A stretch of 64,000 nucleotides of DNA, taken from contig CM000154.2 in NCBI GenBank assembly GCA_000004695.1, forward strand, positions 2,976,001 to 3,040,000, read 5' to 3'. This stretch comes from Dictyostelium discoideum (taxonomy: Eukaryota). Each line of letters starts with the position of its first letter. Position 1 is the first letter of the stretch. The notes below the pieces were generated by a model. The model saw only the letters and a list, made by a program, of their open reading frames with translations. It ran no database searches and had not been told where the DNA came from. A program made the translations under genes and the position numbers. This document shows positions 1 through 62,059 of the stretch, piece after piece.

Positions 1-608
1 TTAAAAATCCAAACTTAAATTACTCAATTTTAGATTCCGCATTTTGTGGTGGTGATTTAAATATATTAGAATATTTAATTAATAATAATTTTAATAATTC
101 ATTTAAATCTTTATTAAATGCAACAAAATTTAATCATGATTTAAATGTTTTAAAATTATTATTAAATAATAATAATTTAATTTTAAAATTTTCACAATTT
201 AATTTTTTACAAGCAATTCAAAATTCAGTTTTAAATAAAAATTTAGATTCAATAAATTATTTAATTGAAATTAAAAATAATTTATATAATAATAATAATA
301 ATAATAATATAAATCCTTATAATACATCATCATCAACATTAGAAACTAATGAATTTTTAAAAATGATTGATAGATGTATTATTACAAAAGATTTAGTAAT
401 TTTAAAGATATTAATAGAGAAATTAAATTTTGAATTTAATTATAGAAAAGATTTAATTTTATCAAATGCAGCATTAAATAATTGTTTAGAAATTATTGAA
501 TATCTTTTATCATTATCAAATTTTAATTTTAAAATTTTACCAACTACAATATTAATGTCTGGTAATATTACAACTGCAAAACTTCTTTATAATTATTATT
601 GTTTAAAA

Positions 609-663
<55 letters not shown>

Positions 664-1217
664 TACCAATTAAATTATCATTTAATATTAATCATAATAA
701 AATTTTAAATAATTTAAATTTAATTAAATATCATTTCTTTAGAAATGATTGGAATTTTATAAATGAAGATGAAATTATTAAATTTGCATCTGTACCAAAT
801 AATGTTGAAGTTTTAAAATTTTTAAAGAAAATTAATTCAAATCATTATGGTAAAGAATATAAATTTTCAACTAAAGTACTTTCAAAAGCTTGTTTTTCAA
901 ATTCAATTGAAAATGTTATATTTATAAATGAAAATTTAAATAAAGAAACAGTTGATGAATGTCCAGTAATTGATAGTTCTGTTGATAATTTAGAAATTAC
1001 AAAATATTTACATTATCAAACAATTATTAATAATTATAAAAATTGGTGCACCACAAAATCTATTGACACTGCTGCTGAATTAAATAATTTTAATACAGTT
1101 TTATTTTTATTAGAAAATAGAAATGAAGGTTATTCTACTGATGTTTTCACTTCTGAAACAATTCATCATTCAATTTTAAAATTATTAAATTCTTTTAAAC
1201 ATTTATTAAAAAAATAA
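1..1217 (+). CDS. 5'-truncated CDS (codons start at nt 3, stop at 1215-1217): C-terminal part of an N-rich ankyrin-like-repeat protein
   Basis: Frame is open from the window edge into ORF 363..1217. Repeat units such as DSAFCGGDLNILEYLINN and LNAT..DLNVLKLLLNN resemble ankyrin repeats. It contains a poly-Asn run (AAT)n at 610-660. It is probably related to the family at 32595-40634 and 56158. Confidence 0.45.
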
Positions 1218-32594: not shown

Positions 32595-34724
32595 TTAGCA
32601 CTTTTTTAAAATATTGGATTTTGAAATTAGGTCAAACCAAGAATATGAAATTTCATCATCACCTTGAGAATGATTATTTACAATATGATTAATTCTATCT
32701 AAATGATTAAATATATACAGAGGTAGTGGATTATCATTTTCTTTTTTAACCAATATATTTAAATAATTAATAATTGAATGATAGGAACAAAATTCACTAA
32801 ATTTTTTAAATGATTCTTTATCCATTATTTTAAATGAAAATTCATAAACTTCTTCAGATAAATAATATACTCTACCATTAATAATTTCAATTGTTGTTTC
32901 ATCACAACATTTCTTATTTTTATTATTATTATTATTTTTTTTATTTTTATTATTATTAGAATGATAAAAATCTAATTCATTTGGGAATGAACCAATTACT
33001 AATGTTGAATTATTTTCAAATAATAATGATTGAATATAATTTAATTCTTTGAAAAATAAATCTAATCTTTTAATTTCCAATAAAAATTTTAAATTATAAT
33101 TTAATGAAAAACCAAGGAAATCATAATTAGTTGAAATGAATTCTTTATGATTAAATGATGGTGAATGAGATAGATGATGAATTAATTTCTCTAATATGTT
33201 ATCAAATGATTGATTAAATATAAAATTAAATGTGAAAACATTCTCATTTAAATATTGTTTGATATCATATTTATTAGTTTTAAAATTACCTCTATCTATA
33301 TTATAAATAATTTTATCATAATCTTGAAAATATTGAATTCCATTCTCAAATGTACCAATTAATGAATCTTCTAAATATGGATTTTCCATAACATATTTAA
33401 TAAACACCATTGATCTCTTTGAAAGATAATATATAATATGAAATAGTGAATTTGGTATTTCAATTGACGATGTTACAATTAAATTATAAATTTTACAAAT
33501 GATTTCTTTAGTTGTTTCTTTAATTTGTATTAATTTCTTAAAAAATGAATTAATTAAATTTTTTAAAGAGTTTAAATATTTAATTTTTTTATTTTCAATA
33601 GTATCATCAATTTCACCATCACCATCACTATCACTATAATTACCAGAATTAGTGTTGGCGTTATAATTGTCTTCAGTTTTTTGAATAATTTTAAAATGAT
33701 TAATTAAAATTTCAATTATATTTATTAAATCATTTAAAGATTCTTCTGTACTTGTTGATCTATAAAATTCTATATCATCATTAAAATTATTAATGAAATA
33801 ATTATCTAATTCTGAATTATTTGAGTAAACATAACCTTTTTCAATTAAATTATAATTATTTAAAATGAAATCAAGTGTTTTTGGTAAATAATTCTTAATC
33901 GAATAATTGAATAATTGAATAATATTGATTGATTTATCAAGTTTTTTAAAATTGAATGAAACTTTCGATAAATCAAAATTTGGATAATCAATTTCAATAA
34001 TCAATTTCATTATTTCATTAATAAATTTAGATGGGAACTTTTTAATATTTTTAAATAAATATTTAACTAAATTATTTATATCTTGAGTGAAAGTTTCACC
34101 ACCACTACTATTTTCAAATTTAATTTCTTGTTGATGTTTTTTTAAATTTGTTATTGTTGGAACTTGAAAATCAATAATATTTGTAATTATATAATCTAAT
34201 GTTATTATATCACATTTTTCAATTGCTTTAATGAATGGATAAATAAAAATGATTGATTTTTCAATTTTATAATTTTCAAAAAATGAAAAATTAAAACAAC
34301 AATCTTTTTTAGTTGATTCAAATTTACTATTTGCATAAATTGATAATTCTAAAGTTTCATAATTAAAAATTGATTTAATTTTATATTGTTCAACTTTTTT
34401 AATTATCTCTTGATAGGTACCTTTTAAATTTGAATTTAAAACAATAAAATCAATTGTTGATTTATCATTTGCCATTATTTCAAATTTACCATCCCAATTT
34501 AAAATTTTATTTAAAATTGGATTCCAACCATTTGGTATTGATTTAATAAACCTTTTTAAAGAAATTTCTGAAATTGATTTAACTAATTCATTAAATTCCT
34601 CTTCATTTCTAGAATTATTAATTAATTCACAAATAATTTTATCAAATTCTTTATTTATAAATATTAATTGTGATGTATATAAATTAATGAATTTATAAAT
34701 TTTTTCCATTCCATAGTTATTATT

Positions 34725-34795
<71 letters not shown>

Positions 34796-35873
34796 GAATA
34801 GTTTTAATATCAGCCATTGGGAAATTTAAATTTTTATTCCAATTACTAAAATCTCTATTTGTTGATTTTGTTTTAAATTCTGTTAATAACCATTGAAATG
34901 TTGATATATTAAAAGTTGATAAACTAAATTGGTAAACTAATAGTCCATTTAATCCATTATCAATTATTTCACCATATTTTAAAAGATAGTTTTTATAAGC
35001 TAAAAAGTTTTTATGTTCGTTTAATAATTCTATTGAATAAAGTTTAAAAATTGTTTTAATTTTATCATTGGAAGTAGTATTTTCACATTGTAATATTTCT
35101 TTAAACTCTTTTGAATTTGAATTGGTTTCACCTGAAATTGTATAATAATAATTGATATTTAATAATTTAATTGATAATTCACTTGAATTTAAAGAAAGAA
35201 TATCAATTAAATCAATCTTTGCAATTTTATCACTACTACTTCTAGTTAAACCTATTGGTTTAATTGAGTATGTTTTTTCATTATCTAATATTAATTTTAT
35301 CATTTGTTCTTTATATTTTTCATTTGAGAATGCGAGTTTAATAGAATTGAATTTTATTTTATTTGAAATTTTTAAATTGGGTGAATTAATTAATAATTTT
35401 ACAATTTCAAATGATGAATTTGATATTGCCCATTCCAAAGTTTTCTCTCCAATATTGAATGAATTTGAATTAATTAGTTTTTCAATTATTTCAATTTGTT
35501 GTTCTTTATTTTTTGAAATTATTAAAAATAAAAAATCAAAATCAATTATTGATTTAATTTCAATACTCTTTTTTTCAATTAATAATAATATTAATTCCTT
35601 TTTTAATTCTTTATCTTTAATTAAAAGTAAAAGAGATATTGAGTATTTTGAAATCTCTAAATTTTCATTTAATTTTAATTTATATTTCAATAGTTGATAA
35701 TGTTTATTGACCAATATCCATTCTAATGAATTAACATCTTTAAATCTCTTTTTATTTTCTATATGAATTTGAGAGTATTCATTATATTCTTCCCATTCAA
35801 TATTTTTTATATAATTTAATATTTTATAAAATAAAACTTTGTTACGTATAATCTTCCAAAATAATATTTCCAT
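32595..35873 (-). CDS. Large N/K-rich lineage-specific protein (1092 aa), family member A, with a conserved N-terminal F-W-K/R motif and ankyrin-like repeats
   Basis: Single long ORF. The N-terminus is MEILFWKIIRNKVLFYKILNYIKNI. Internal blocks LEWAISNSSFEIVKLLINSPNL, NYKNYLLKYGEIID and EKLIHHLSHSPSFNHKEF..NYNLKFLLEIKRLDLFFKELNYIQSLL are shared with the downstream paralog. Confidence 0.6.
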
Positions 35874-36970
35874 TTCGGTCAGTCAATTTAAAATAAAAAT
35901 AAAAAAAAAAAAAAAATAATTTATAAAAAAAAATAAAAAAGTGATGGTTTTTTTTTTGTAAAAAAGACAAGAAAAAAAAAAGAAAATGTAAAAGTATTTT
36001 TTTTTTTTAATTTTTTTATTTTTATATTTATCAATTATCTTTATCTTTTTTTTTTTTTTTGGTTAACAGTTTTTTTTATTTATTTTTATTTGGGGATAAC
36101 TGATTCAAATTATAGTATACTTTTTTTTTTTTTTTTTTTTTTACAATCACTCTCACCAAAACCACCACAACCACCACAACTACCACAACCACCAACAAAT
36201 GTCGCTGCTTCCTTATCTCGCCAAGTGGCGCTTTATCTTATAGTTTCATTACAGTAACTCAATTCAATTTCATTAACTTTAATTGTCTTCTTGATTCAAC
36301 CAAAACCGATAGAAGAACTGATATTCCTAAAGATAAATACAAAACAGTCAATACATAATCATATTGTATCAAGATGATCATCCCACCAGCACATTTTCAA
36401 CAAGTTATTCGATCTCAAGATTCTCCATTTTCAACAAGTTATTCGATCTCACTACCGCATCTATTATTAATGCCAACCTTGGTTTCATTTCACCTTTGAC
36501 TGTTGATAAACTTGCTTGGTTTGATCCATTTACCAACATCTCCCAACATTACCATGACAAATTTAGATTTACAAGGAAAACCAATCAACTGTTAAGGACT
36601 CAAATGGATTCCACCAATTTGTTAATGGTAACTATTGTATGAATGGAAATTATAGATTCGATAACAATCAAAACCAGCTCCAGTTACAAATCAATCCAAA
36701 CAGAAATCAATAGACCAATCTTGTTTAGTTCACAATCTCCTATAATACTCGCCAAGATAACAAAGAAAATCACCAAGTCAAAATGATAAAAAATAAGTGA
36801 TTTATCATTAGTTTTTATTATTAAATTTTAATAAAAACAATAACCGATCCGATAAAATTAAAAAATAACAAAAAACTAACAATAATAAAACTAATAAACA
36901 TTATTTAAATTTAAAAAATGTTAATACATATAAAATTTTAATTTTAATTTTAATTTAATTTTTTTAATTT

Positions 36971-37025
<55 letters not shown>

Positions 37026-37031
37026 CTAAAA

Positions 37032-39952
37032 TTACAAAAGCCAACTAATGAATCTAAAAGGATGGTGATTTTCTTTTGAGTTTAATTTTTGTGACAATTT
37101 TAATTTTAAAAATTGTATATTATCTTGATTTAAATAACCAAAATCATATAAATAATTTACAAAATTAAAATTAGAGGTTTTATATGCTTGATTTAATAAT
37201 TCATCATCAATTTGAAAATAATAATGGTTTGGAAAATTGTTTAAAACTAATTCTCTTAAGGGAATATTAAACTTTCCAGATTTATTCAATTTTTCTAAAA
37301 TTAAATCCATTAACTCACTATGATTATTATTACCAAAAAAAAAATTTGAATATTTAATTATTGTATTTTCGCTAATGTTTATATTAAAAACTTTATACCA
37401 AAAGTTTTTTAAATTATCATCATTTTGAGTATTAATTATTTGATTATTAATAATTTGATCGATTAGTTGTGAATGATCTAAAATTAAATCTAAAACACTT
37501 TTTGAAGATATTTCTGAATATTTAAAATTTTTAGTTTTACTTAAATAGTCTATAAATGAAAGATATGAATATGATTTTACAAATACAGAAAATGTATGAG
37601 TATCCATTAAAAACAATAAAGTTTTAAAAATAAATGGTGAAATAGGAAAATAAATAAAGTAACCATCATCTTTGATTAATTCATTATAAACATCCCTTTT
37701 AAAATAATTATTTTTTGTATTATTATTATTATTATTATTATTAATATCTTCTTGAATTTCATCTGGTATTTTTAAAAGTTTCGAGAAAGAAACTAATGGA
37801 ACTGTTTTATCTTTTAATAGTTTTTGAATGTAATTTAATTCATTAAAAAATAAATCTACTCTTTTAATTTCTAAAAGGTATTCTAAATTATAATTAAAAG
37901 TTTTAAAAAGGTAATTGTTTTCATGAATTACCATTTTATCATTGAAATAAGGTAAATGTGATACTTCATGAATTAATCTTTCTAAAACTATTGAAAATGG
38001 AGGTGGTTGAGCAAATTCATTTAAACTATTACTATTATTACCAAAAATGAATTCCCAAGTAAAGATATTTGATTTTAAATATTTTCCAATATCATAACCA
38101 TTATGATCATATATCTTTTCAGAATTATAATTTGGTATATTTTTTGATTTTAAAAGTTTTCCAATGAATGGTAATTTTATTAAGTATTGAATAAATTCTT
38201 GTGATTTTAATCCTAAATAATAAAAACTATGAAATAGAGAATGTTCTAAACTTATTGAATTATCTAATATTAATCTACGAATTTTTTCAACATCTTTAAA
38301 TTTTACATCATCAATTTTAATTAAACATCTAAATAAACGGTTAATTAATTTTTCTAAAATCTGATTATCTTTTGATGTCGTTGTCGTTGTTGTTGTTGAT
38401 GTTATTTTAAAGGATTTTATTAATGTTTCAATACATTCAATAACATGTTTTGGATTTTGACAAGTTGTTGGAACATAAACTTGATAATAATCATTATCAT
38501 TCATTTCTCCAGTTTCATAATAATAATCTTCATATATATATGAAAGAATTGAATTATTTGTAAATAATGAATCTAAATCTAATTTTGATAATGATGGTAA
38601 TAAAATCATTTGAAAATCATTTGAAAAACCATTCACTAGTTTAGTCATTAAAAGTGGTGATAATTCGTCAAATTTCTTTGAATATTGTTGAAATTGATCA
38701 TTAAATTTAATTTTAATTTTATCACTATTAAATTTAAAATCAAATAAAAACTTTTCAAATGTTTTTTCATTAAATGCTTTATAACCACTGTCATTTAAAT
38801 AATTTATTAATTTCTCTTGATTTTCAATTGTTGTGGTTTCATTTAAATTATTAAATGAATCTTTAAATTCTCTTTTATAGATTTTATAATAGCTATAATT
38901 TTCATCCGAATTTTGATTACTACTAAAAATCATATCATTTTCAAGTTTAAAACCCAATACATTTTCATCAATGAATTTTAATGTTTCAATATCATAATTA
39001 TTAATTGCATTGATATAAGTTTGATGATATAATAAACATTTGTAGAAATAACTATCACCATTTAAACTCTTTGGATAATATAGTATTGATGATTTGTCTG
39101 AAAATGCATCAATTGCATATTGTATTAATTCTAAACTTTCAAATTGAAATAATTCTCTAGTTGTAAAACTTCTTAATTTCTCTTTTAATAGGAATCCATT
39201 ACAATTCTCTAATATCCAATCAAACTTTTCTTTATTATTAATATAGATTTTTGAATAATTAAAACCCCAATTAGATAAATCAATTAAAACTTGATTCCAA
39301 CATTTTGGATATAAACTAATTGGTATTGAATTGATTTTACTATTTGGTGAAATTGAATTATAAACTCTTTCATATTCTTCACTTGTTTTTGATGATAATA
39401 AAAGTTGTTTAATTTCTTGATCAACATCTATATTTCTAAATGCAAGACATTCACTTTGTTTTGTATAGTATTCAATAAATTCATATGTAGATTCAAGTTC
39501 TCTTTTAATATTATTTTTTTTATTATCTAATGATATACTTTCAATTATTAGTTTTACTGTTAAGAAATTAAATGATGCTTTTTTATCTTTATCTGATGTT
39601 ACTGTTTTTGAGATTACCCATTTAAAAGTTTTTGGTTCAAAATTTAAAAAACTAAATTGAATTACAATCTCTAAATATTCAATATCTAAATCTTCAATTG
39701 GTTCAAAATATTTTAAAAGATAATTTTTATAATTATTTTTATCTTTTTTTACTAATATCTTAAAAACTTCTTTTATTTTATTTTCACTCTTATCATTTTT
39801 AATAATTTCTTTAATTTCATCATGATTTGAATTGTTGAAATAATTTAAATTTAATAATTGATTTATTATTTTTGAATCTTTTATAAATAGAAATTTATTT
39901 ATATCTGGAATTTTTTTTATTGATTGAAAGTTATTAAAATCATTATTATTAT

Positions 39953-39983
<31 letters not shown>

Positions 39984-40634
39984 ATTATAAAATTTATTTA
40001 ATAATAATCCAATAATTAATTCTTTATGATTATCATTATTATTATTACGAGTAAATGCTAAACTAATTGATCTATTCTTTAATTCTTCTGTTATTATTAA
40101 ATTATGTGAATTTACTAAAATATCTACCATTTGATAAGAACAATTTAAAATTACCCACTCTAAAACTGATGGGAAAATTTTAATTGAAAATGGTTCATTT
40201 AATAAAATTTCTACAGCATCATAATTTTCAACTCTTTTTTTATTATTTAAATCTTCAATTTCTAATGCTATTGATAATAAATCGAATTGAAGTAATTCTA
40301 ATTTCTTTTTTTCATATAATAAATTAAATATTTCTTTTATTTCATCTTCATTATTATTATTATTTAATCTGAATAATTTTTGAAATGAACTTTTTGATAG
40401 ATCAATATATTCATTTGCTTTTAATTTACATATTAATAGTTGGTATTGTTTCATTTTTAACATCAATTCCATTGATGTTAAATGTTTGAATTTAATTTGA
40501 CTACTTCTATTAATACCAACAACTTCAACCCTTTCTAATATTAATTTAAGTAAATATACATTATGTATAACTTTCCAAAATATTGGTTCATTATCGCTAT
40601 TAAATTTTTTAACTTTATTACAATTGTTTATCAT
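37032..40634 (-). CDS. Large N/K-rich lineage-specific protein (1200 aa), family member B, tandem paralog of 32595..35873
   Basis: Single long ORF. It has EPIFWKVIHNVYLLKLILERV near the N-terminus, then LEWVILNCSYQMVDILVNSHNL, NYKNYLLKYFEPIED and ERLIHEVSHLPYFNDKMV..NYNLEYLLEIKRVDLFFNELNYIQKLL. These are co-linear with the upstream paralog. Confidence 0.6.
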
Positions 40635-45099: not shown

Positions 45100-45460
45100 T
45101 TAGAAATCATCTAATTCAATCTTTAAATCTACTTCTATTGGTCTAACTTTAGTATTATTTGAACTACCACCACCATAAAAAGATTTAGAATTACCACTAC
45201 CACCACTGTAAACACTCTTTGGCATTGAGAGTGCAAACTTATCATTATTCTCTGGATCATCTCTTGTATCTAAATAGGCAATTATATCACCATCCTTTAA
45301 TAGATATGGCTTACCTCTTAATTCTAAAACTGTTGAATTTTCTTTCTTTTTATTTGAAGGTGGAGGTGGTGGAGGTGCTGGTATTGATTTATTATCTATT
45401 TGTTCAGTTTCAACTATTGATACAGATGATGATGATGTTGTTGAGTTTATTGTTGTTGTT

Positions 45461-45494
<34 letters not shown>

Positions 45495-48400
45495 CTGTTG
45501 TTGTTGCTGTTGTTGAGTTTATTGAGTTTATTATAGTTTCAGTTTCTACTATTGATACTTTATTATTATCAACCGATTCAATGGTAACAGTTGAAGCATT
45601 TTGTTCAGATTGTTGTGGTTGTTGATCAACATCTTGAGGAGCACCACAACAAGCATCAATAATAACAATATTATCTAAAGCCACTGAACTACTAGATGAT
45701 GAAGATAATGTTTGTCTTTCTTCAATTATTCTCCATGGATTAGTTTTATTATTTGGGAAATACTTGTAAAGACGTAAGAATTGTTGATCGATATCAAAAG
45801 TGACTGAAATTTGATCAGTTAAATCTTTAATAGTTTTACCTTTGAAAGTGATTTGTTTTGCAGGATATTCAAAAGATTGTTCTTGTGGTACTCTCTTATG
45901 AACATAAAGTAATAACGGTGGTACTAATTTAACAAAACTAGTTGAATGTTGTTGAATATGATTTGCACCATTTAATTCATTAACTTTTTCAAGTAAATTA
46001 CCATTTGGCTCATCATAATCTTCAATTATATTTTGTTGTTGTTGGTCAATTTGTTTTGTATAAATTTCAATTGTAATTGAAGATTCTAAATGAATATGAA
46101 GTTTTGATAATGGTTTATTAAAAGAATTTAATAATTTTTCATCTAACCAAATTCTAATATCTTGTTCTTCCATATTAATAAATGATTGATTTAAAAATAA
46201 ATCCCAATTTAATAATTGATTTTTCAATTGTTGTAGAGTTATCTTTTTATCAGCCCAAAGATCACCAATTGGTATAATTGTGAATAAATCTGGTACCATT
46301 GGAATATAAGTTGGATTTAGATGAAGTATTGGTGAAGAAGGTACTGGTAAACATTGAGAAATGTTATTAATTTGGTAAAGTTTAACCTTTAATAGAATTT
46401 GATCTTTTGAAGGTAGTACACCCTCTTCTAGCCAAACGATATCCATTGATTTTATACCAGACTCTTCCAATGTCATATCCTCCTCAATGAATACATTGAT
46501 TGGTTTCTCAAAGAGATCAGTTTGTCTAAGTATATAACGATTTGAAAACTCTTCATTGATTGACAACTGTTTCAATATCTCCTTTTTCAATTGAGTGATG
46601 GTAGTTTGCTTTGAAGAAGAATTGGTAGTCAATAATTTTGGATCAGGGAAAACTGCTTTCTTATCGATTGCATAGAGATATTTAATAGAGAGATTTGATT
46701 TGGCGGGTTGTCCCTTCTCAAAGATTACCAATGAAGTATCGACGATATTTGCTTCTTTCAACATTAAACTATCGTCAGAGATACCAGTACCTTCATAACC
46801 ACCGACTAAAGTTTTTCTAATTACAGTTTGATCCAACCAAACCTTCTTTTGATTTGGATAAAGCATATCGAATATGGTCTCTTTCAATTGATAGATTGTA
46901 CTCTTTGGATCGGATAACACACGTACTGGTGGTGATTCAGTGAGTGGTGCACTAGTGGTTCTAAAACGATCTTTAACAAATATTTGAATCTTTGATTTAT
47001 TCAACTCGAAATCTTTTTTAACCAAACTACTAGATTGATCCAATGAATCTGATCCACCAATACTTTCAACATCGAATCCCTCTGGTAAAACCTCACACAA
47101 TATACTAATACCATTATAAATTCTTTGAGAGAATTTCAAATCCATATCATCCTCCAATGGCAATAAACAAGTTTGAGATGGCATCATATAGAGTAGCAAT
47201 CTATTTGGTGTTACCCTCTCATTGGTAAACATTAACTGATTAATACCATCACAAATTGTATCTTTAAATTGTTGAAAACTTGACTCCCTATCCACCATTA
47301 AATTCAAATCTTTCATTAAATAATCCACTGTTACCGATGATACAAATGAATCGGTAACGGTTTCATTCTCTTTTTCAATTTGTTCTTCTTCATCACAAAC
47401 CGTCGCATCCATTAAATTTGATAAACCTTTTGATTTATGATAGAAATATCTAACAGAGAATTTAATTGGTATATTTGATTTATCTTCACCCTTCCAAATC
47501 AATAATTGTGAACCCTCCCTAATACCAATCTTTTTAATGTTAACACTTGGTGAAGCTTGAATGGGTGGTTGTAAAATGATTTTACCATCTTTTACATAAC
47601 ATTCTTGAATTACGATACCACATTGCTTAGTTTCAATTTCAATTGACTCAATTTGATTTTTATACTTTTCTCTAATTAAATTAAATAAATCCTCTGTTGT
47701 ACTTGATACATCGATTGCCAATGACTCTCTTTCTCTTTCTCTATCTTTCTCTTTAATATTATTTTGAATATCATAAATCAGTCCATCACGAATTATAACA
47801 CTATCAATGAATCTTGGTTGTATATACATTGTATTCATACTTTTATCATAATCAATTCTTTCATTTACAATACTCTTATTAAATTCTGATATTTCCTTTT
47901 CAAAATGTGATGGTATATCCTTAAACTCCATTTTATCTCTTAATGCTACTGATCTATAAACCAACATATAAGCACATTCATCTTTACCACCAAATTGTCT
48001 CTTTAAAACATTATCTTTAATTGGTAAAACACTACTATCATTAAAATCAAACCAACCTGTAAATTTATTACCTTCTTCATCATTTTCTTCATCATTTTCT
48101 TTATTTTTATTTAATTTTTCTTTTTTTTCATTTTCTTCAATTTTATTATCTGATGCTGTATTTGTTGTTGTTGTTGTTGTTGTAGTATTTGTTGTCGTTG
48201 TTGTTGATGTATTAATATCTTTATCTTGTTGTTGATCAACTTTTAAAGTTGAATTACCAATTGATTGAAGATCTTTAATATAAGAATGATAATGACCACC
48301 AAAAGCACCACCACTATGAATTAAAACAGAGAACAATTCATAATTTAATTTCTCTGGTTCTGGTGTTGTATCAGGATTCTCTTTATGTTGTAAATAATCA

Positions 48401-49624
48401 ATAGTGAATGGTGTCATATCTAATTGTTGAGAGAATTCAAAACGATTATGAAGTTTAACACGAGTACCCCTTTGGAAATCATAATCGAATCTACGAAGTG
48501 CAAAAATTAATATTTTAGGGATTTTACCCAATTTAACTTGAAATGTTGCAACCACCTTTTCATTACACTTTTCACAAGAGTACATATTTCTACCATCCAA
48601 TGTTTCAGGAGTTGAAAAGGATCCAACCAAACTCTCTTCAATTGAATTGAAACCTTTTACACCAATGGGTATATCTTGAAAATGTTCTTGTGAATCCTTA
48701 ATGGTACCACACTTTGTACATGTTAATCTATTTACAAAATAACCTTTATATAAATCATTGAATAATGTTTCAATTGGTGTTTTCTTTATTGAATGTTCGA
48801 CTGCATCAAATAAAACTCTATTCAATTCATGTATATCTTGTTGATGAAATGATTGACTACCATTCCATCCAAAACTTTTTGTTAAATCTTCTGTTGAAAT
48901 TGCATAAACATCACCTTTTTGTAACATAGAAAATAATCTTTGTAATTCATATGGAATAATTCTACCTTTTCTTTTAGTTGTTGTTGTGGTTGTTGTTGTT
49001 GTTGTTGTTGTTGTTGTATTATTATTATTATTATTATTATTATTTACATTTGTTGTTGTGGTGGTTGTATTTGAAGTATTATCTGTTGTATTTTTATTAT
49101 TATTATTATTATTATTTTTATTATTCTCTAAAGCTTCACCAGAGAATACATTAATCTTTGTTGATTCATCATATAAAACTATTGCTTTTGAACTATCAGA
49201 TGGAATACCACTATCAATCATACCACTTGAATAATATTCACTTGTTGTACCATCACGTCTTGGATATGTATCAAATGCATCATAACAATCACCAAATAAT
49301 GATTGATCAACAAATGATGCATCATTGTCAAAATCATTATTATTACAGTTATTATTTACAGAAGGTCCAAATGGTACCTCATCATTATTATTATTTGATG
49401 CTCTATTATTATTATCATTATTATTATTATTATTACCACTACTACTAAAATCATCAAGGAATTGAGATTCATCACAAGTTAAAATCCAATCAATTAATCT
49501 TTCTTGTTGAGAAGGTAATGGGAATCTTTTTAAAGCAGCAATTAATTTATACTCTTCAAATCCAAATGCCATTAAACCAATTGCATACTCTGAATCTAAT
49601 AAATCATTATCATTTACAATATTA

Positions 49625-49685
<61 letters not shown>

Positions 49686-50224
49686 TAACACTATCATTAT
49701 TATTATTATTATTATTATTGTTTTTGTTGTTGTTATTATCACTATTGGTTATATTTGTTTCATTATCTTTTTCTTGTTCTTTTTCTTTTTCTTTTTCTTT
49801 TGTATTTTCTTTATCAATTTCATTTTTATTTTCTATTTCTTTTTGTTGTTTTAAGTCTGTTATTCCAAAATCATCAATTCCTAATTTATATATATCATTC
49901 TTTAATTCTGGTGTCATATAAAGCATTTGAATTAAACTATTTAGGTAACATGTTGCTCCTCTTTTTATTTTTTATATATTTTTTTTTTTAAGAAAAAATT
50001 AATATAGATAACTAGGATGATGATAAAAATAATAAGAAATAATTAACTTACTGATTTAATAAACCAACAAAACCATAACCTGATCTTTCACCAGTTGGTT
50101 TTCTCTTGTAAGATGTTGATCTACCATAGCCACCACCACCATTGCTTTGACCAGGTAATAAAGGCCCTATGAATTCCTCTCTATTTGTATCATCTTCATC
50201 GCCATCAAATAAACCACCAAACAT
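45100..50224 (-). CDS. Ubiquitin carboxyl-terminal hydrolase, USP47 ortholog; join(50224..50052,49960..45100), ~1677 aa
   Basis: Exon 1 (MFGGLFDGDEDDTNREEFIGPLLPGQSNGGGGYG..YGFVGLLN) has a GTAAGT donor. Exon 2 begins QGATCYLNSLIQMLYMTPELKNDIY, the Cys box, and includes the His box YELFSVLIHSGGAFGGHYHSYIKD. The N-terminal region matches the remembered human USP47 ([37 protein letters not shown]). There are long poly-Thr and poly-Asn inserts. Confidence 0.8.
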
Positions 50225-56157: not shown

Positions 56158-57702
56158 ATGGAAAAATTATTTTTTAAAGTTTGGAAAAATAATATTTTAA
56201 GGAAATTAATATTTTCATATATTATAGAAATTAATAAAAGAAAAATTGGTAGAATTTTAAAATATTATGAAATTAAATCAGCAGATATTTTATGTGATAA
56301 TGGATATTGGTTATTATTAAAAGATATAGTTCAACAGAGAGAGATTAGAAGAAAACAAAAAGAAGAGGGTAAATCATGTTATCCAGGCCCATCAATAGAG
56401 ATAAAGATAACAGAATCATCATTAATTAAAATTTGTAAAGGTGTTTCAAATATTGATTTATTTAAATCACTTTATTATCAATTAGAAAAGGAGTTTAAAT
56501 ATCATGATTTCATGTTTATAGATTATGCAGCCGATAGCGGTTCATTGGAGGTGGTGAAATTCCTTCATGAAAAGGGCCACAGTGCGTCATTCGTTGCCTT
56601 GGATAACGCAAGTTGGAGAGGGCATTTCGATATAATTAAATTCCTAATCCACAACAGACATGAGCAATGCTCGAAAGGAGCCATCGACCAGGCCGCTGCC
56701 GAGGGTAATTTACCAATAGTGAAATATCTATCAAAGTACACACAATCTGGGTGTTCAAAGTCTGCTATTAATCTAGCATGCAAAAACGGGCATTTAGAAA
56801 TGGTGAAATACCTATTCGAGAATAGAAAAGAGGGTGCGTCAGCCAAGGCATTGGATTATTGCTGCGAGTTTGGTAGATTTGAAATATTTAAATATCTATT
56901 TGAAAACGATGTTTTGTCATTAAACAATATGGGCACTACCTCATTCAGCAGTCAAAGTGAGTCACAAAATAACAATGGTCATAATAAACAGTATATCACA
57001 GTTGACGGCTTGAAATTGGCTGTCAAAAGTGGTAATTTGCAATTGGTTAAATATATGATTGATAATAAAATTTTCATTAGATCAGATTGTAACATTGCCT
57101 ATCAACAAAGTCTATCCCAAAGAAATTGTGAAATCATTAAATTATTAGAACAATTCTCTAGTGAAAGAATTACAACAGTTGAATTCATAATGTATAATAT
57201 AAAAGCAATTGAAAATAAATTATTAAATAATATAATTTACTTATTTGACAAGTATCCTAAACAAGTACTATCTTCAACTCAATATAAAGAATTAATTTAT
57301 AAATCTGTACAATCTTCTGATTTCCAAATATTTCAATTCATTTTCCAAAATGCAATTAAAAAATATCCAACTTTTTTACAACAAACTTTAAAGAATTCCT
57401 CTTCTTCCTCTTCCTCTTCCTCCTCATCTTCTTCAAAAGGTGAAAAAAATCATTTAAATGAAAAATATTTATTTATGTTATCTATAAGATCTTTAAATTT
57501 AGAAATTGTTCAATTTATTTATAATCAATATCATATTCCTTCAAATTCAATTAATATTCAATTATTATTATCTTTTTCAATTTATAATTTTAATATACCA
57601 ATAACTGATTTTTTAATTTCAAACTTTTTTATAAATAATTTTTATTTAATTCAAAATGATCATCAAGATGATCATGATTTAGATAGTATTAATAATATGT
57701 AT

Positions 57703-57766
<64 letters not shown>

Positions 57767-58225
57767 GTTATAAAAATAGTAAATTAAATTTAGATAATTA
57801 TTTATTATCACCAATAATAAGATCAAATTCAAAAATTTATAATTATTTATTAAATTGTAAAAATAATATTTTACCACAATTACTATTACAACAAATTCAA
57901 CAACCACAACCACAACCACAACCACAATCACAACCTCAATTATCAAATAATAATAATAATAATAATACTAAAAAACAAAGTGTATTATTTATTAATAATG
58001 AAAATTATAAATTATTGTATAAATCAAATATTTCATCAATTTATGATGAAATTCATATATCAAACCCAAAATATTTTAAAATATTTTTAACCCATTTAAC
58101 TGATAGTATGATGTCGGAATTTGATGATTCTTTTAATCACATCTCAAGAGGAAATCATATTAGATTTGTTGATGCTTTTTCAGGTGATCATCATCTTTTA
58201 TATGGTTTTAATAATAATAATAAAT

Positions 58226-58230
<5 letters not shown>
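56158..58230 (+). CDS. Ankyrin-repeat protein (690 aa) whose N-terminal F-W-K motif relates it to the 32595/37032 family
   Basis: The N-terminus is MEKLFFKVWKNNILRKLIFSYII. There are at least 5 ankyrin repeats (GSLEVVKFLHEKGH, GHFDIIKFLIHNRH, GNLPIVKYLSKY, GHLEMVKYLFENRK, GNLQLVKYMIDNK). It also has poly-Ser, poly-Asn and a (PQ)n stretch. The repeat-encoding block 56540-57130 is about 42% GC, against about 22% elsewhere in the gene. Confidence 0.65.
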
Positions 58231-58657: not shown

Positions 58658-59131
58658 ATGGCAACAAGTGAAGATGATAAAGATAACAGTTATAAAAAAA
58701 TTAAATGTACAATTCATCCAAATAAAAAAATAAAACTTTTATGTTCAGATTGCAATTTAATGCCATGTTGTATTGAATGTATTTTAGATGGTGAACATAT
58801 TTCACATAAATATCGAAAGTTAGAATCAGTAGATTTTTCATTAATTAATAGTAAATTTAAAAATGATATATGTCCAAAAATAAAAGAAAAAATTGAAAAT
58901 AATAAAATAATATTAAAAGAATCTTATAATAAATTCCATGAAATTCAATCACAATTTTATAATAATAATAATTTAATAAAAAATGAAATTGATAAAATTC
59001 GAGAAACCATTTCAAATATTGAAACTGATTTTCAAAATGAATTAAAAGAAACCTTTGATAATAATAAAATAATAAATACAAAAATAACATCATCAATAAA
59101 TCAAGATAATGAATTACTCACAAACATTGAA

Positions 59132-59195
<64 letters not shown>

Positions 59196-59431
59196 GTTCA
59201 AATTGTATTGATGCAAATGAAACCATTAAACGATATCAACAATTATTAATATTAATAAATAATAATAAAAAAAATTCAAATAAATTAAAAGAATATAATA
59301 ATCAAGTGATTACATTTGAAAATTCAACACTTGATGAAATTAAAAATTATTTAAAATTAATATATTCTTTTAAAAATAATGATAATAATGATAATAAAAG
59401 TAATAATGAATTTGATAATGATGGAGATTAA
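58658..59431 (+). CDS. B-box zinc finger plus coiled-coil protein (257 aa), paralog 1 of the B-box/FNIP cluster, with no FNIP repeats
   Basis: CTIHPNKKIKLLCSDCNLMPCCIECILDGEHISH is a B-box-type Cys/His finger. It is followed by a coiled-coil-like region with a poly-Asn tract, and it ends with a stop at 59431. Confidence 0.6.
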
Positions 59432-59689: not shown

Positions 59690-60449
59690 ATGACAACAAG
59701 TAATAATAATAATAATAACAATAATAATAATAAAAATAAAATTCATAAAAATATTAAATGTACAATACATTCAAATAAAAAAATAAAACTTTTATGTTTA
59801 GATTGTAATTTAATGCCATGTTGTATTGACTGTATTGCAGATGGTGAACATAATACACATAAATATAGAAAGTTAGAATCAAAAGATCTTTCATTAATTG
59901 ATAATAATTTAAAAAATAATGTATATCCAAAAATAAAAGAAACAATTGAAAATAATAAAATAATATTAAAAGAATCAAATAAAAAATTCAATGAAATTCA
60001 ATCACAATTTTATAATAATAATAATTTTATAAAAAATGAAATTAATAAAATTCAAAATATAATTTCAAATTTTAAAAGTGATATTGAAAAACAATCAAAA
60101 GAAATATATAATAATAATATAATAATAAATACAACAATAACATCATCAATAAAACAAGATAATCAAATACTCACAAACATTGAAAATAATAATAATGAAT
60201 CCAACCCAAATGATATAAATGAAATAATTAAACAATTTCAACAATCATTAATAATATTAAATAACAACAATTCAAATAAATTAAAAGAATACGATTGTAA
60301 AATGGTTCAATTCGATCATTCAACAATTGATCTTATTAAAAATTATTTAAAATTAATTTATTCTATAAAAGATAATTGTAATAATCAATTTTATTACGAT
60401 GAAGATTTTCAATTTATATGTGAACCAGAAGGTAATAATGAGCCGGTCG

Positions 60450-60535
<86 letters not shown>

Positions 60536-62059
60536 CTGCAACAACAACAACAACAACCAACACCAATTTCACCAACAACAACAACAACAACAGCAACAAC
60601 AACAACAACAACAGCAACAGCAACTACAACATCAACATCACCAAATAATAAAAAAAGAAAGAATCCAGATTCTGATGATTATGATGGTAGTGATGGTTAT
60701 GATGGTCATGATTCTGATGATGGTCATGATTCTGATGATGACTCTGATGATGATGATAATAATAATGATAAAAATGATGACAATAATAATAATAATAATA
60801 AAAATAAAAATGGACCGAATAAAAAATATAGACCACGTGTATTAAGTAAAATAACAAGTAATGTTAAAACGTTGCATATACATTGTTTAAGACAAGAATT
60901 AGAGATTGGTTGTATACCTAATACTATTGAAACCATCTTTTTAAAAGGTGGATACAATCAAAGATTACTCACTGGTATAATACCAGAAGGTGTTAAAAAG
61001 TTACAATTTGGTAGAATGAATCAAGAATTAATTATTGGATCAATTCCTAAATCAGTGACGTGTGTAGCTTTAAAAGGTGGATTCAGTCAAAAATTAACAC
61101 CAGGTTTAATACCAGAAACTGTACTAGACTTTAAAATTGGTGATACCAATCAAGTTTTAATGGTTGGATCAATTCCAAATAGTGTAAAGAGACTCTATCT
61201 ATTCCGTAAATTCAACCGAAAATTAAGACCTGGTATAATTCCAAAAGGTGTTACAGAGTTGTATTTAGGTAATAAGAATGATGTATTAAAGGTTGGTTCA
61301 ATTCCAAATACTGTAAAGACTATCTATTTAGAGAAGGATTTCAACCAAAAGTTAATACCTGGCATATTACCAAACGATGGTTTTAAAGAACTACATATTG
61401 GTCCCATAGAATTAAAAGTATTAGAGATTGGTTCAATTCCTAAAACTGTAAAGAGGGTCTATTTGAATAGTAAATATCCACAAAAATTTAAACCAGGTAT
61501 ATTACCAGAAGGTGTTCAAGAATTACATTTAAGCGGAAAGAATCAACCCTTAATGATTGGTTCCATTCCAAAAACTCTAAAGAGTATTTATTTGGAAAAA
61601 GGATTCAAACAAGCATTACCACCTGGTATAATAACTGAAGGTGTAGAAAACCTATATTTACGTTCTATAGGTAAGGTTCAAATTGGTTCAATTCCTAATA
61701 CTGTAACAAGTGTCCATATATTGAAAGAGTTTAATCAAACATTAAAACCTGGTGTTTTACCAATAAGCGTTAAACATTTACATCTATATGATTTCAAATC
61801 AACATTAACTATTCATTCAATTCCTAATACTGTGGATAATGTATATTTAAATGATGGATTCAGTCAAAAAATAATGCCTGGTATATTACCAATAGGTGTT
61901 AAATCTTTACATTTAGGTGATATAAAAAAAGAAATAACCATCGAATCAATCCCCTTCACTTTAGAGACTATAAATATATATAGAGGTTTTAAACATCCAA
62001 TTGAACCATTCATTTCAAAAAATATAAAAATTGTCAATCACTTAAAGAGACTTAACTAA
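59690..62059 (+). CDS. B-box zinc finger plus FNIP-repeat protein (789 aa), paralog 2
   Basis: It has the same B-box (CTIHSNKKIKLLCLDCNLMPCCIDCIADGEHNTH). It then has polyQ (CAA)n, a Thr/Ala-rich stretch and an Asp-rich stretch. After that come 17 or more ~22-aa FNIP repeats (..IGSIPKSVTCVALKGGFSQKLTPGLIPE.., ..VGSIPNTVKTIYLEKDFNQKLIPGILP..). Confidence 0.7.
60462..60540. repeat. (CAA)n polyglutamine-coding microsatellite
   Basis: About 26 CAA units. Confidence 0.8.

What the first reader, a model, noticed from the sequence alone, without database searches (positions are those of the whole stretch)
32595..40634. Head-to-tail pair of ~1100-1200 aa paralogs in a wider family with a conserved N-terminal FxK(V/I)(W/I)(K/R)N motif
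The two large ORFs are co-linear paralogs at roughly 30% identity, so the duplication is old. Their N-termini (ILFWKIIRNKVLFYKIL and PIFWKVIHNVYLLKLIL) resemble the N-terminus of the ankyrin protein at 56158 (KLFFKVWKNNILRKLIFSYI). All are followed by ankyrin-like LExxxxxGxxxxVKxLL units, and the truncated gene at 1-1217 has the same repeat style. The motif spacing (aromatic-W-basic-N ... L.(K/Y)(I/L)) is F-box-like. That suggests a lineage-specific F-box-like plus ankyrin substrate-adaptor family, with four members inside 64 kb.
Basis: partly seen in the sequence, partly recalled or inferred. Interest (0 to 1): 0.5.

Follow-up and report, generated by a model that had tools for sequence, protein, structure and literature searches.

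The report
Dictyostelium ankyrin-like family with conserved N-terminal module
Two neighbouring slime-mould genes are old duplicates from a large, unnamed Dictyostelium-only family of helical-repeat proteins that share a strongly conserved 70-residue N-terminal module, which is real and non-random but matches no F-box model, so a role in ubiquitin ligases remains only a hint.

Summary
The window is Dictyostelium discoideum chromosome 5. ORFs 37032-40634 (DDB_G0289603, 1200 aa) and 32595-35873 (1092 aa) are same-strand tandem paralogs (BLASTP E 5e-31, 34% identity overall). Both copies are also adjacent in D. firmibasis, so the duplication is old.

The strict N-terminal motif occurs 3 times against 0.05 expected, always at the start of a long ORF. 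It belongs to a ~70-aa module found in at least 81 Dictyostelium protein clusters. The module also heads the 690-aa ankyrin protein at 56158 and the full-length (806-aa) version of the gene truncated at 1-1217.

The F-box reading fails every sequence test: 0 of 44 members hit Pfam F-box models against 29 of 30 genuine Dictyostelium F-boxes, hhalign probability is 0.5%, and no PDB F-box protein is matched. The only support is indirect. Published N-terminal fragments of two Skp1 co-immunoprecipitation hits score above all shuffles against the module.

Verdict: a new, lineage-specific ankyrin-like scaffold family. A cryptic Skp1-binding role is possible (~0.2).

The parts
37032..40634 (-). Upstream paralog, DDB_G0289603, 1200 aa, single exon, annotated 'hypothetical protein', no Pfam domain
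   Evidence: ORF list. 100% match to DDB_G0289603. Gene call in assembly GCA_054883475.1.
40398..40607 (-). N-terminal module of DDB_G0289603 (residues 10-79): ...EPIFWKVIHNVYLLKLILERV...IKFKHLTSMELMLKMKQYQLLICKL
   Evidence: Module HMM 72.5 bits, HMM positions 2-80. Conserved in orthologs from 5 Dictyostelium species or strains.
39588..40634 (-). N-domain of DDB_G0289603 (residues 1-349), a divergent ankyrin-like helical solenoid by homology to the modelled paralog
37035..39587 (-). C-terminal all-alpha region of DDB_G0289603 (residues 350-1200), no known relative
   Evidence: C-domain HMM match. No Pfam hit or PDB sequence hit.
35874..37031 (.). AT-rich intergenic spacer between the two paralogs (1158 bp)
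   Evidence: ORF coordinates. GC about 0.17-0.22.
32595..35873 (-). Downstream paralog, 1092 aa, single exon, uncharacterised
   Evidence: ORF. Called as a 1092-aa gene in GCA_054883475.1. D. firmibasis ortholog at 59% identity over 1106 aa in the same position.
35652..35873 (-). N-terminal module of the 1092-aa paralog (residues 1-74). AF2 gives helix 2-10, a break at invariant Asn11, helix 12-24, a variable loop, then an ankyrin-like hairpin at 50-55 and 59-67.
   Evidence: Module HMM 83.4 bits. AF2 secondary structure. Blocks 1-20 and 41-70 are the most conserved of the N-domain.
34839..35873 (-). N-domain (residues 1-345): about ten helix-turn-helix units, ankyrin-like solenoid
34716..34793 (-). 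Poly-Asn low-complexity linker (residues 361-386) between the N- and C-domains
   Evidence: Translation.
32598..34706 (-). C-terminal all-alpha region (residues 390-1092), no recognisable relative
33027..33566 (-). Most conserved part of the C-domain (residues 770-949): ...HSLxHSFYYLxIKSxKFxKYI..., ...FTFxFIFGxxFDxIL..., ...NxxLxYxLxIxRxDLFFxxLxxIQ
   Evidence: Column conservation in the 24-sequence alignment. Nearly invariant Y816, L817, S821, L897, R936, D938, L939, F940.
56158..58230 (+). 690-aa ankyrin-repeat protein that shares only the N-module with the large paralogs
   Evidence: Pfam Ank_4 E 1.2e-24, repeats at residues 121-251. Called as a 690-aa gene. No match to the N- or C-domain HMMs.
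56158..56343 (+). N-terminal module of the 690-aa protein (residues 1-62): MEKLFFKVWKNNILRKLIFSYI...ILKYYEIKSADILCDNGYWLLLKDIV
   Evidence: Module HMM 28.2 bits, E 3e-7, above all 2000 shuffles. 21.8 bits in the whole-protein context.
1..1217 (+). C-terminal half (residues 403-806) of an 806-aa ankyrin-repeat gene. Its N-module lies about 1.2 kb upstream of the window start.
   Evidence: The window fragment is contained exactly in the 806-aa product of L005:9579-11999. Its N-terminus matches the module at 23.6 bits. Pfam Ank_4 66 bits.

Best explanation
The two genes are ancient tandem duplicates from a Dictyostelium-genus-restricted, expanded family of ~1000-1300-aa all-alpha proteins.

Each protein has four parts:
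1. A strongly conserved ~70-aa N-terminal module. It has two short helices hinged at an invariant Asn (LFWKVFxN-KYLFxxIFxxI), a variable loop, and then NRxKFKxIxSLxWMIxNxQYxLLKxKL. The last stretch is the first ankyrin-like helix hairpin.
2. A fast-evolving ankyrin-like solenoid reaching about residue 345.
3. A low-complexity linker.
4. A ~700-aa helical C-terminal region with three conserved blocks and no known relative.

The same N-module also heads ordinary ankyrin-repeat proteins, including the 690-aa and 806-aa genes here.

Shown: the paralogy, the family, the module, and the ankyrin-like fold of the N-domain.

Inferred: these are non-enzymatic protein-protein interaction scaffolds. The constant N-module serves as a specialised N-terminal cap and docking surface of the solenoid for a common partner. 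The variable repeats and C-domain bind diverse ligands. Tandem duplication and loss diversify the repertoire. The module is not a demonstrable F-box, and its partner is unknown.
For: Paralogy. Duplicate pair conserved between FMO and PI3K in D. firmibasis, and lost in D. dimigraforme.

Family size and range: 81 representative clusters with E<=1e-3 and 60 with E<=1e-10 in an exhaustive profile search. Every named member is a Dictyostelium 'hypothetical protein'. There are no relatives in viral, bacterial or archaeal, or JGI metagenome contigs.

The module is the most conserved segment, with invariant F5, N11, I18 and K65 in 44 sequences of ~25-30% overall identity.

Modularity: N-only and C-only members exist. 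The module occurs in front of canonical ANK repeats and after a Ras domain in P0115.

No catalytic or other Pfam domain appears anywhere.

Against: The scaffold or adaptor function is inferred from architecture and conservation only. There is no expression, localisation or interaction data for these genes, and no paper mentions DDB_G0289603.

The conserved R-x-D and H-S-x-x-H motifs in the C-domain could mean an unrecognised enzymatic activity.

I could not inspect model coordinates, so how helices 2-24 pack against the solenoid is unknown.
Confidence: 0.55

Rival explanations
1. Cryptic F-box. The N-module is a highly diverged Skp1-binding element. Helix 12-24 would play the role of F-box helix 1, with the invariant Asn replacing the Pro of 'LP'. 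KFKxIxSLxW would play the role of CKxWxxL...LW. The proteins would then be substrate receptors of SCF ubiquitin ligases.
For: The module sits N-terminal to repeat domains, as in typical F-box proteins.

The constant-module plus variable-repeat logic fits, as does the extreme conservation of the module.

In Boland et al. 2022 (PMC9485057, Fig. S3) two Skp1 co-IP hits have proposed 'F-box-like' N-terminal fragments that match my module HMM. DDB_G0268782 (MDKLFQSVFNNIYISRLIYS...) scores 19.0 bits, and DDB_G0294633 (ankyrin...SRKYKDIISLEWMIN) scores 15.8 bits. Each is above all 500 of its own shuffles.

The hydrophobic spacing LFxxIFxxI equals ILxxILxxL of F-box helix 1 (read directly from the sequence).
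Against: No F-box model is matched by whole proteins, by N-termini at E<=10, or by 0 of 44 family members. The same test recovers 29 of 30 real Dictyostelium F-boxes.

The module profile finds no PDB F-box protein at E<=10, while a Dictyostelium F-box profile finds 52.

hhalign probability is 0.5%, and the best match is 5 columns. None of the 30 genuine F-boxes scores against the module HMM.

AF2 predicts no helix 2 / helix 3 pattern between residues 25 and 49.

The family and its members found here are absent from that paper's list of 83 candidates. The two co-IP hits were unvalidated, their F-box assignment came from forced pairwise alignment, and I could not retrieve their full sequences.
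Confidence: 0.2
2. Purely structural cap. The N-module is only the N-terminal capping unit that shields the hydrophobic face of an ankyrin-type solenoid. It would be conserved for folding, with no partner of its own.
For: The module always directly precedes ankyrin or ankyrin-like repeats. Its second half resembles an ANK helix hairpin. pLDDT of residues 1-20 is 83-86, which suggests an ordered part of the domain.
Against: Capping repeats are usually less conserved than internal ones, not more. Here the module is far more conserved than the repeats it caps across ~25%-identical paralogs.

Predicted proteins of 76-124 aa consisting of the module alone recur, although many may be partial gene models or gene fragments.

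In the 806-aa protein a poly-Asn insert splits the module in two, so the two halves tolerate separation.
Confidence: 0.2
3. Chance or low-complexity resemblance, or a membrane-anchoring or targeting helix rather than a protein module.
For: The genome is ~20% GC, so K/N/I/F-rich peptides are common. Helix 2-24 is amphipathic (read from the sequence).
Against: Three observed motifs against 0.05 expected. HMM scores lie far above composition-matched shuffles. The codons differ between copies while the residues are kept.

The helix contains K7, R10, N11, K12, K17 and N20, so it is not a transmembrane segment.
Confidence: 0.03

Closest known systems
Canonical F-box proteins (Pfam PF00646 / PF12937), e.g. 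Dictyostelium FbxA and Legionella AnkB (F-box + ankyrin repeats, PDB 5k35)
   Same: A short conserved N-terminal helical element is followed by a variable repeat domain. The family is multi-gene and fast-evolving. The hydrophobic spacing of the second helix resembles F-box helix 1.
   Different: There is no profile, profile-profile or PDB-sequence match. The LP motif is absent, with an invariant Asn instead. An extra conserved helix (LFWKVF) sits upstream. A long variable loop replaces helix 2. Skp1 binding has not been shown.
Ankyrin-repeat scaffolds (Pfam clan Ank), e.g. TRPV3 ARD 4n5q, KANK3 6tlh, IkB-beta 1oy3
   Different: The repeats of the two large paralogs fall below the Pfam threshold, and Foldseek is not significant. 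Repeat lengths are irregular. The proteins are preceded by a family-specific module and followed by a ~700-aa domain with no relatives.
Skp1 co-IP candidates DDB_G0294633 (ankyrin) and DDB_G0268782 (LRR-like) of Boland et al. 2022, J Biol Chem 298:102305 (PMC9485057)
   Same: Their published N-terminal 'F-box-like' fragments match the two halves of the module: 15.8 bits to HMM positions 43-61 and 19.0 bits to positions 7-40. DDB_G0294633 also has a poly-Asn insert between the halves, as the 806-aa gene here does.
   Different: Only loop-deleted fragments, read by machine, were available. The full sequences could not be retrieved. None of the window's genes is in that paper's lists.
ANK-based cullin-RING substrate receptors (ASB proteins with a SOCS box; FEM1B/C)
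   Different: In these proteins the box is C-terminal and binds Elongin C. No SOCS or BC-box profile hit was seen.
Other lineage-specific repeat-protein expansions in Dictyostelium (FNIP/IP22-repeat proteins, e.g. the B-box + FNIP gene at 59690-62059)
   Same: These are also Dictyostelium-enriched, tandemly arrayed, poly-Asn-rich repeat proteins of unknown function.
   Different: They have a different repeat type (LRR-like FNIP) and a different N-terminus (a B-box zinc finger here).

Membership tests
F-box protein family | Significant match to an F-box profile (Pfam F-box, F-box-like, F-box_4, F-box_5) | tested here: not met
   No hit for whole proteins at E<=1, for isolated N-termini at E<=10, or for 0 of 44 family N-domains at E<=1. 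Positive control: 29 of 30 Dictyostelium F-boxes hit.
F-box protein family | Profile-profile or profile-sequence similarity to genuine F-boxes | tested here: not met
   hhalign probability 0.5%. The module profile finds no PDB F-box protein at E<=10, while the control F-box profile finds 52. No genuine F-box scores against the module HMM.
F-box protein family | A ~40-50-aa three-helix domain starting with LPxE(I/L) | tested here: inconclusive
   AF2 shows helices at 2-10 and 12-24, then mostly non-helical residues 25-49 with pLDDT ~68-73. There is no LP motif, and an invariant Asn occupies that position.
F-box protein family | Located N-terminal to a repeat-type substrate-binding domain | tested here: met
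   The module precedes ankyrin or ankyrin-like repeats in all four genes.
F-box protein family | Direct binding to Skp1 | not testable with these tools
   Only indirect evidence exists: fragments of two Skp1 co-IP hits in PMC9485057 match the module.
Ankyrin-repeat proteins | Pfam ANK match above the gathering threshold | tested here: not met
   For the two large paralogs, Ank_2 scores 21.2-22.6 bits against a cut-off of 27.3 in the 1092-aa protein, and nothing is found in DDB_G0289603. The threshold is met for the 690-aa protein (86 bits) and the 806-aa protein (66 bits).
Ankyrin-repeat proteins | Stacked helix-turn-helix solenoid superposable on solved ANK domains | tested here: met
The Dictyostelium N-module family defined here | Match to the ~80-position module HMM at the N-terminus | tested here: met
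   1092-aa protein 83 bits, DDB_G0289603 72.5 bits, 690-aa protein 22-28 bits, 806-aa protein 23.6 bits. All are above all shuffles.
The large-protein subfamily (N-domain + C-domain) | Match to both the N-domain (~360 aa) and C-domain (~840 positions) HMMs | tested here: met
   Met for the two paralogs (364-476 bits and 740-1350 bits). Not met for the 690-aa and 806-aa proteins.

The most novel reading that the evidence does not exclude
The N-module is a previously unrecognised, Dictyostelium-specific class of Skp1-docking (or other cullin-adaptor-docking) element that standard F-box models cannot see. If so, at least 80 additional large proteins plus an unknown number of ordinary ankyrin (and perhaps LRR/FNIP) proteins would be SCF substrate receptors. 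That would roughly double the organism's F-box-protein repertoire and explain part of the unassigned Skp1 interactome.
Probability: 0.15. Interest if true: 0.65.

Novelty: new variant of a known kind. Interest (0 to 1): 0.35.

Why it matters
Every member of this family is annotated as a 'hypothetical protein' and has no Pfam domain. Defining the N-module, the ankyrin-like N-domain and the orphan C-domain gives these proteins a first architecture.

The family spans at least 81 clusters at 50% identity. It evolves by tandem duplication and loss and is confined to one genus. That pattern is typical of recognition or adaptor repertoires.

If the module does dock to Skp1 or another common adaptor, it would be a new solution to the F-box problem. 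It would also give the Skp1-glycosylation field a concrete, testable set of hidden substrate receptors. If it does not, the family is one more lineage-specific repeat-protein expansion, of interest mainly to Dictyostelium annotators.

Tried and rejected
- **Pfam scans.** Whole proteins, isolated N-termini, 44 N-domains and 24 C-domains gave only weak ANK hits and no consistent family. The single DUF7593 hit (E 0.059) did not recur and was dismissed.
- **PDB sequence searches.** Module and whole-family profiles found nothing.
- **Profile-profile comparison.** hhalign against a Dictyostelium F-box alignment gave nothing. The best match was LFWK against the LWK tail of the F-box, 5 columns and not significant.
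- **Homolog search with the module profile.** A 62-aa module profile returned only short proteins of 76-112 aa and none of the long members. This looks like a limitation of that search for short queries.
- **Last homolog search.** I spent it on the published DDB_G0294633 fragment, and it shared no words with any protein. The machine-read, loop-deleted sequence was probably too corrupted.
- **Scans of other collections.** Viral, bacterial or archaeal, and metagenome contigs had no relatives. Sensitivity was limited because confirmation used the divergent 690-aa N-terminus.
- **Internal repeat search.** Only a weak match (P 0.08) was found between the second half of the module and the ANK-like unit at 144-158. 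Helices 1-28 matched nothing.
- **Rejected explanations.** A chance or low-complexity origin of the motif is rejected. A transmembrane anchor is rejected because the helix contains charged residues.
- **Other checks.** DDB_G0293774 from the Skp1 list looked similar by eye but was not significant. There are no tRNA genes in the window.
Full report
**Source and gene models.** The window has ~20% GC. The 1200-aa ORF at 37032-40634 (minus strand) is 100% identical to DDB_G0289603 of Dictyostelium discoideum AX4, a 'hypothetical protein' without Pfam domains. Neighbouring ORFs match other chromosome 5 genes: mitochondrial EF-Tu, Prp31, the FMO DDB_G0289605 and DDB_G0289607. In another D. discoideum assembly the 1200-aa and 1092-aa ORFs are called as adjacent single-exon genes between an FMO gene and a PI3-kinase gene. 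The rest of the window holds ordinary genes: RRN3, NFACT, PI3K, a USP-type deubiquitinase, an LRR-RasGEF, and B-box/FNIP genes.

**The observation.** The two ORFs are co-linear paralogs. BLASTP gives E 5e-31 (29% over 590 aa) and 3e-30 (37% over 290 aa). Identity over a family alignment is 34%. The strict motif F[WF]K[VI][WI][KRH]N occurs three times in the six-frame translation, each 4-18 residues after the start Met of an ORF of 690-1200 aa. The expectation is 0.05, and the maximum in 200 shuffles is 1. Codons differ between the copies while the residues are kept.

The duplication is old. D. firmibasis has FMO, a 1117-aa ortholog of DDB_G0289603, a 1186-aa ortholog of the 1092-aa gene (59% identity over 1106 aa), and PI3K in the same order. 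D. dimigraforme retains only a 64-aa remnant of the second copy.

**The family.** An exhaustive profile search found 81 representative clusters at E<=1e-3, 60 of them at E<=1e-10. Every member that carries a name is a Dictyostelium 'hypothetical protein'. The species are D. discoideum strains, D. cf. discoideum, D. citrinum, D. dimigraforme, D. firmibasis and D. purpureum. No relatives were found in viral, prokaryotic or JGI metagenome contigs.

Nearly all members begin with the same ~70-80-aa module, E-x-LFWKVFxNKYLFxxIFxxI ... NRxKFKxIxSLxWMIxNxQYxLLKxKL. F5, N11, I18 and K65 are invariant in 44 sequences that are otherwise ~25-30% identical. Blocks 1-20 and 41-70 are the most conserved of the N-domain.

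The family is modular, with an N-domain (~1-360) and a C-domain (~400 to the end). Some members match only one of the two. The C-domain has three conserved blocks at residues ~810-829, 880-899 and 930-949 of the 1092-aa protein.

**Wider reach of the module.** A module HMM built without the 690-aa ankyrin protein scores that protein's first 62 residues at 28.2 bits (E 3e-7). The best of 2000 composition-matched shuffles scores 10.3. The rest of the 690-aa protein matches neither family domain but has canonical ANK repeats (Ank_4 E 1.2e-24).

The gene truncated at window 1-1217 was recovered in full (806 aa) from another assembly. The window fragment is its residues 403-806. Its N-terminus, MIDNLFFNVFRNKYIRSIIVRYL...[poly-Asn]...KKYIEINELEWIVKNKKFSILHDKL, matches the module at 23.6 bits (E 2e-6), with no shuffle reported. 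It also has canonical ANK repeats. However, only the two large ones are paralogs over their whole length. One metagenomic protein has the module after a Ras domain and before ANK repeats.

**Structure.** AlphaFold2 on residues 1-360 of the 1092-aa protein, with a 44-sequence alignment, gave mean pLDDT 87 and pTM 0.82. It shows about ten helix-turn-helix units. The module itself is helix 2-10, a one-residue break at Asn11, helix 12-24, a less confident loop, and then a hairpin at 50-55 and 59-67.

**Is the module an F-box?** Sequence tests say no.
- No F-box model is matched by the whole proteins, by the N-termini at E<=10, or by any of 44 family N-domains.
- As a control I built an alignment of 30 Dictyostelium F-boxes taken from Fig. 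S3 of Boland et al. 2022 (PMC9485057). Of these, 29 hit the Pfam F-box models, and their profile finds 52 F-box proteins in the PDB. AT-rich composition therefore does not hide real F-boxes.
- The module profile finds no PDB F-box protein.
- hhalign of the family against the F-box alignment gives probability 0.5%.
- No genuine F-box scores against the module HMM.
- The predicted secondary structure lacks the helix 2 / helix 3 pattern.

None of the window's genes is among the 83 candidates in that paper.

**What keeps the idea alive.** In the same supplementary figure, two proteins recovered in Skp1 co-immunoprecipitations carry 'F-box-like' N-terminal fragments that resemble the module.
- DDB_G0268782 (MDKLFQSVFNNIYISRLIYS...) scores 19.0 bits against module positions 7-40.
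- DDB_G0294633 (an ankyrin protein; ...SRKYKDIISLEWMIN, with a poly-Asn insert) scores 15.8 bits against positions 43-61.

Each exceeds all 500 of its own shuffles. These interactions were not validated, and the F-box assignments came from forced pairwise alignment that tolerated loops. I had only loop-deleted, machine-read fragments, and a search for the full DDB_G0294633 sequence failed.

Two further points fit an adaptor-docking element but do not prove one. The spacing LFxxIFxxI equals ILxxILxxL of F-box helix 1, with Asn where the F-box has Pro. The module is also far more conserved than the repeats behind it.

**Conclusion.** The finding is real. It describes an unannotated, Dictyostelium-restricted family of ankyrin-like solenoid proteins with a distinctive conserved N-terminal module and an orphan helical C-domain. 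The two genes are an ancient tandem pair from that family.

The most likely role is non-enzymatic scaffolding or adaptor function, with the N-module acting as a specialised cap and docking surface (confidence 0.55). A cryptic Skp1-binding role is possible (about 0.2). A purely structural cap is about equally likely (0.2). Chance is excluded.

The family is a new variant of a known kind (ANK-type scaffolds). Interest is moderate and would rise substantially if Skp1 docking were shown.

Noticed in passing
L004:13778-17831 (D. dimigraforme, between the DDB_G0289603 ortholog and PI3K): The second paralog is missing in D. dimigraforme. Only a 64-aa stretch, 52% identical to residues 954-1017 of the 1092-aa protein, remains by tblastn, and a 149-aa gene is called on the opposite strand. 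This points to gene loss or pseudogenisation within the family.
   Followed up: partly
Proteins P0036-P0039, P0076, P0079, P0081, P0084, P0089, P0102, P0106, P0112 (e.g. DDB_G0273369, 102 aa, chromosome 2): Many predicted proteins of 73-124 aa consist of the N-module alone. Some are marked 'partial', so they may be truncated gene models, pseudogene fragments or genuine stand-alone modules.
   Followed up: no
P0115 / P0119 (JGI metagenome contigs of ~1.5 kb): A 433-aa protein combines a partial Ras-family GTPase domain (residues 23-88), the N-module (residues ~191 onward) and ankyrin repeats (322-373). The module is therefore not strictly N-terminal and travels together with ANK repeats.
   Followed up: no
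window 58658-59431 and 59690-62059 (+); L002:8499-14073: Directly downstream of the 690-aa ankyrin gene lies a run of B-box zinc-finger genes. They are a 257-aa B-box protein, a B-box plus 9 FNIP-repeat protein (called as 1061 aa in another assembly), and a further B-box/FNIP gene beyond the window. This is a second tandem repeat-protein family in the same region.
   Followed up: no
D. purpureum contig of 269,154 bp (P0053, P0055, P0036, P0037): Four family members, two full-length with consecutive gene numbers and two partial, lie on one D. purpureum contig. Tandem arrays of this family therefore also exist in a more distant species.
   Followed up: no
window 32598-33566 (-), residues 770-1092 of the 1092-aa protein: The C-domain carries nearly invariant polar residues in otherwise hydrophobic blocks (HSxxHSFYYLxIKS; IxRxDLFF). 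They could mark a binding or catalytic site in a domain with no known relatives.
   Followed up: no
window 35652-35873 (-) and the family consensus: The spacing L14-x3-I18-x3-I22 in the second helix matches the spacing of BC-box (Elongin C-binding) helices as well as F-box helix 1. The best hhalign match, which is not significant, pairs LFWK with the LWK tail that ends canonical F-boxes.
   Followed up: partly
window 35152-35697 (+): A 181-aa ORF with a TTG start lies antisense inside the 1092-aa gene. It is most likely a by-product of the AT-rich sequence and not a gene.
   Followed up: no
window 45100-49926 (-): A large USP-type deubiquitinase (UCH domain plus a USP40-like UBL; 1677 aa in the annotated model) lies 4.5 kb upstream of the paralog pair. 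There is no evidence of any functional link.
   Followed up: no
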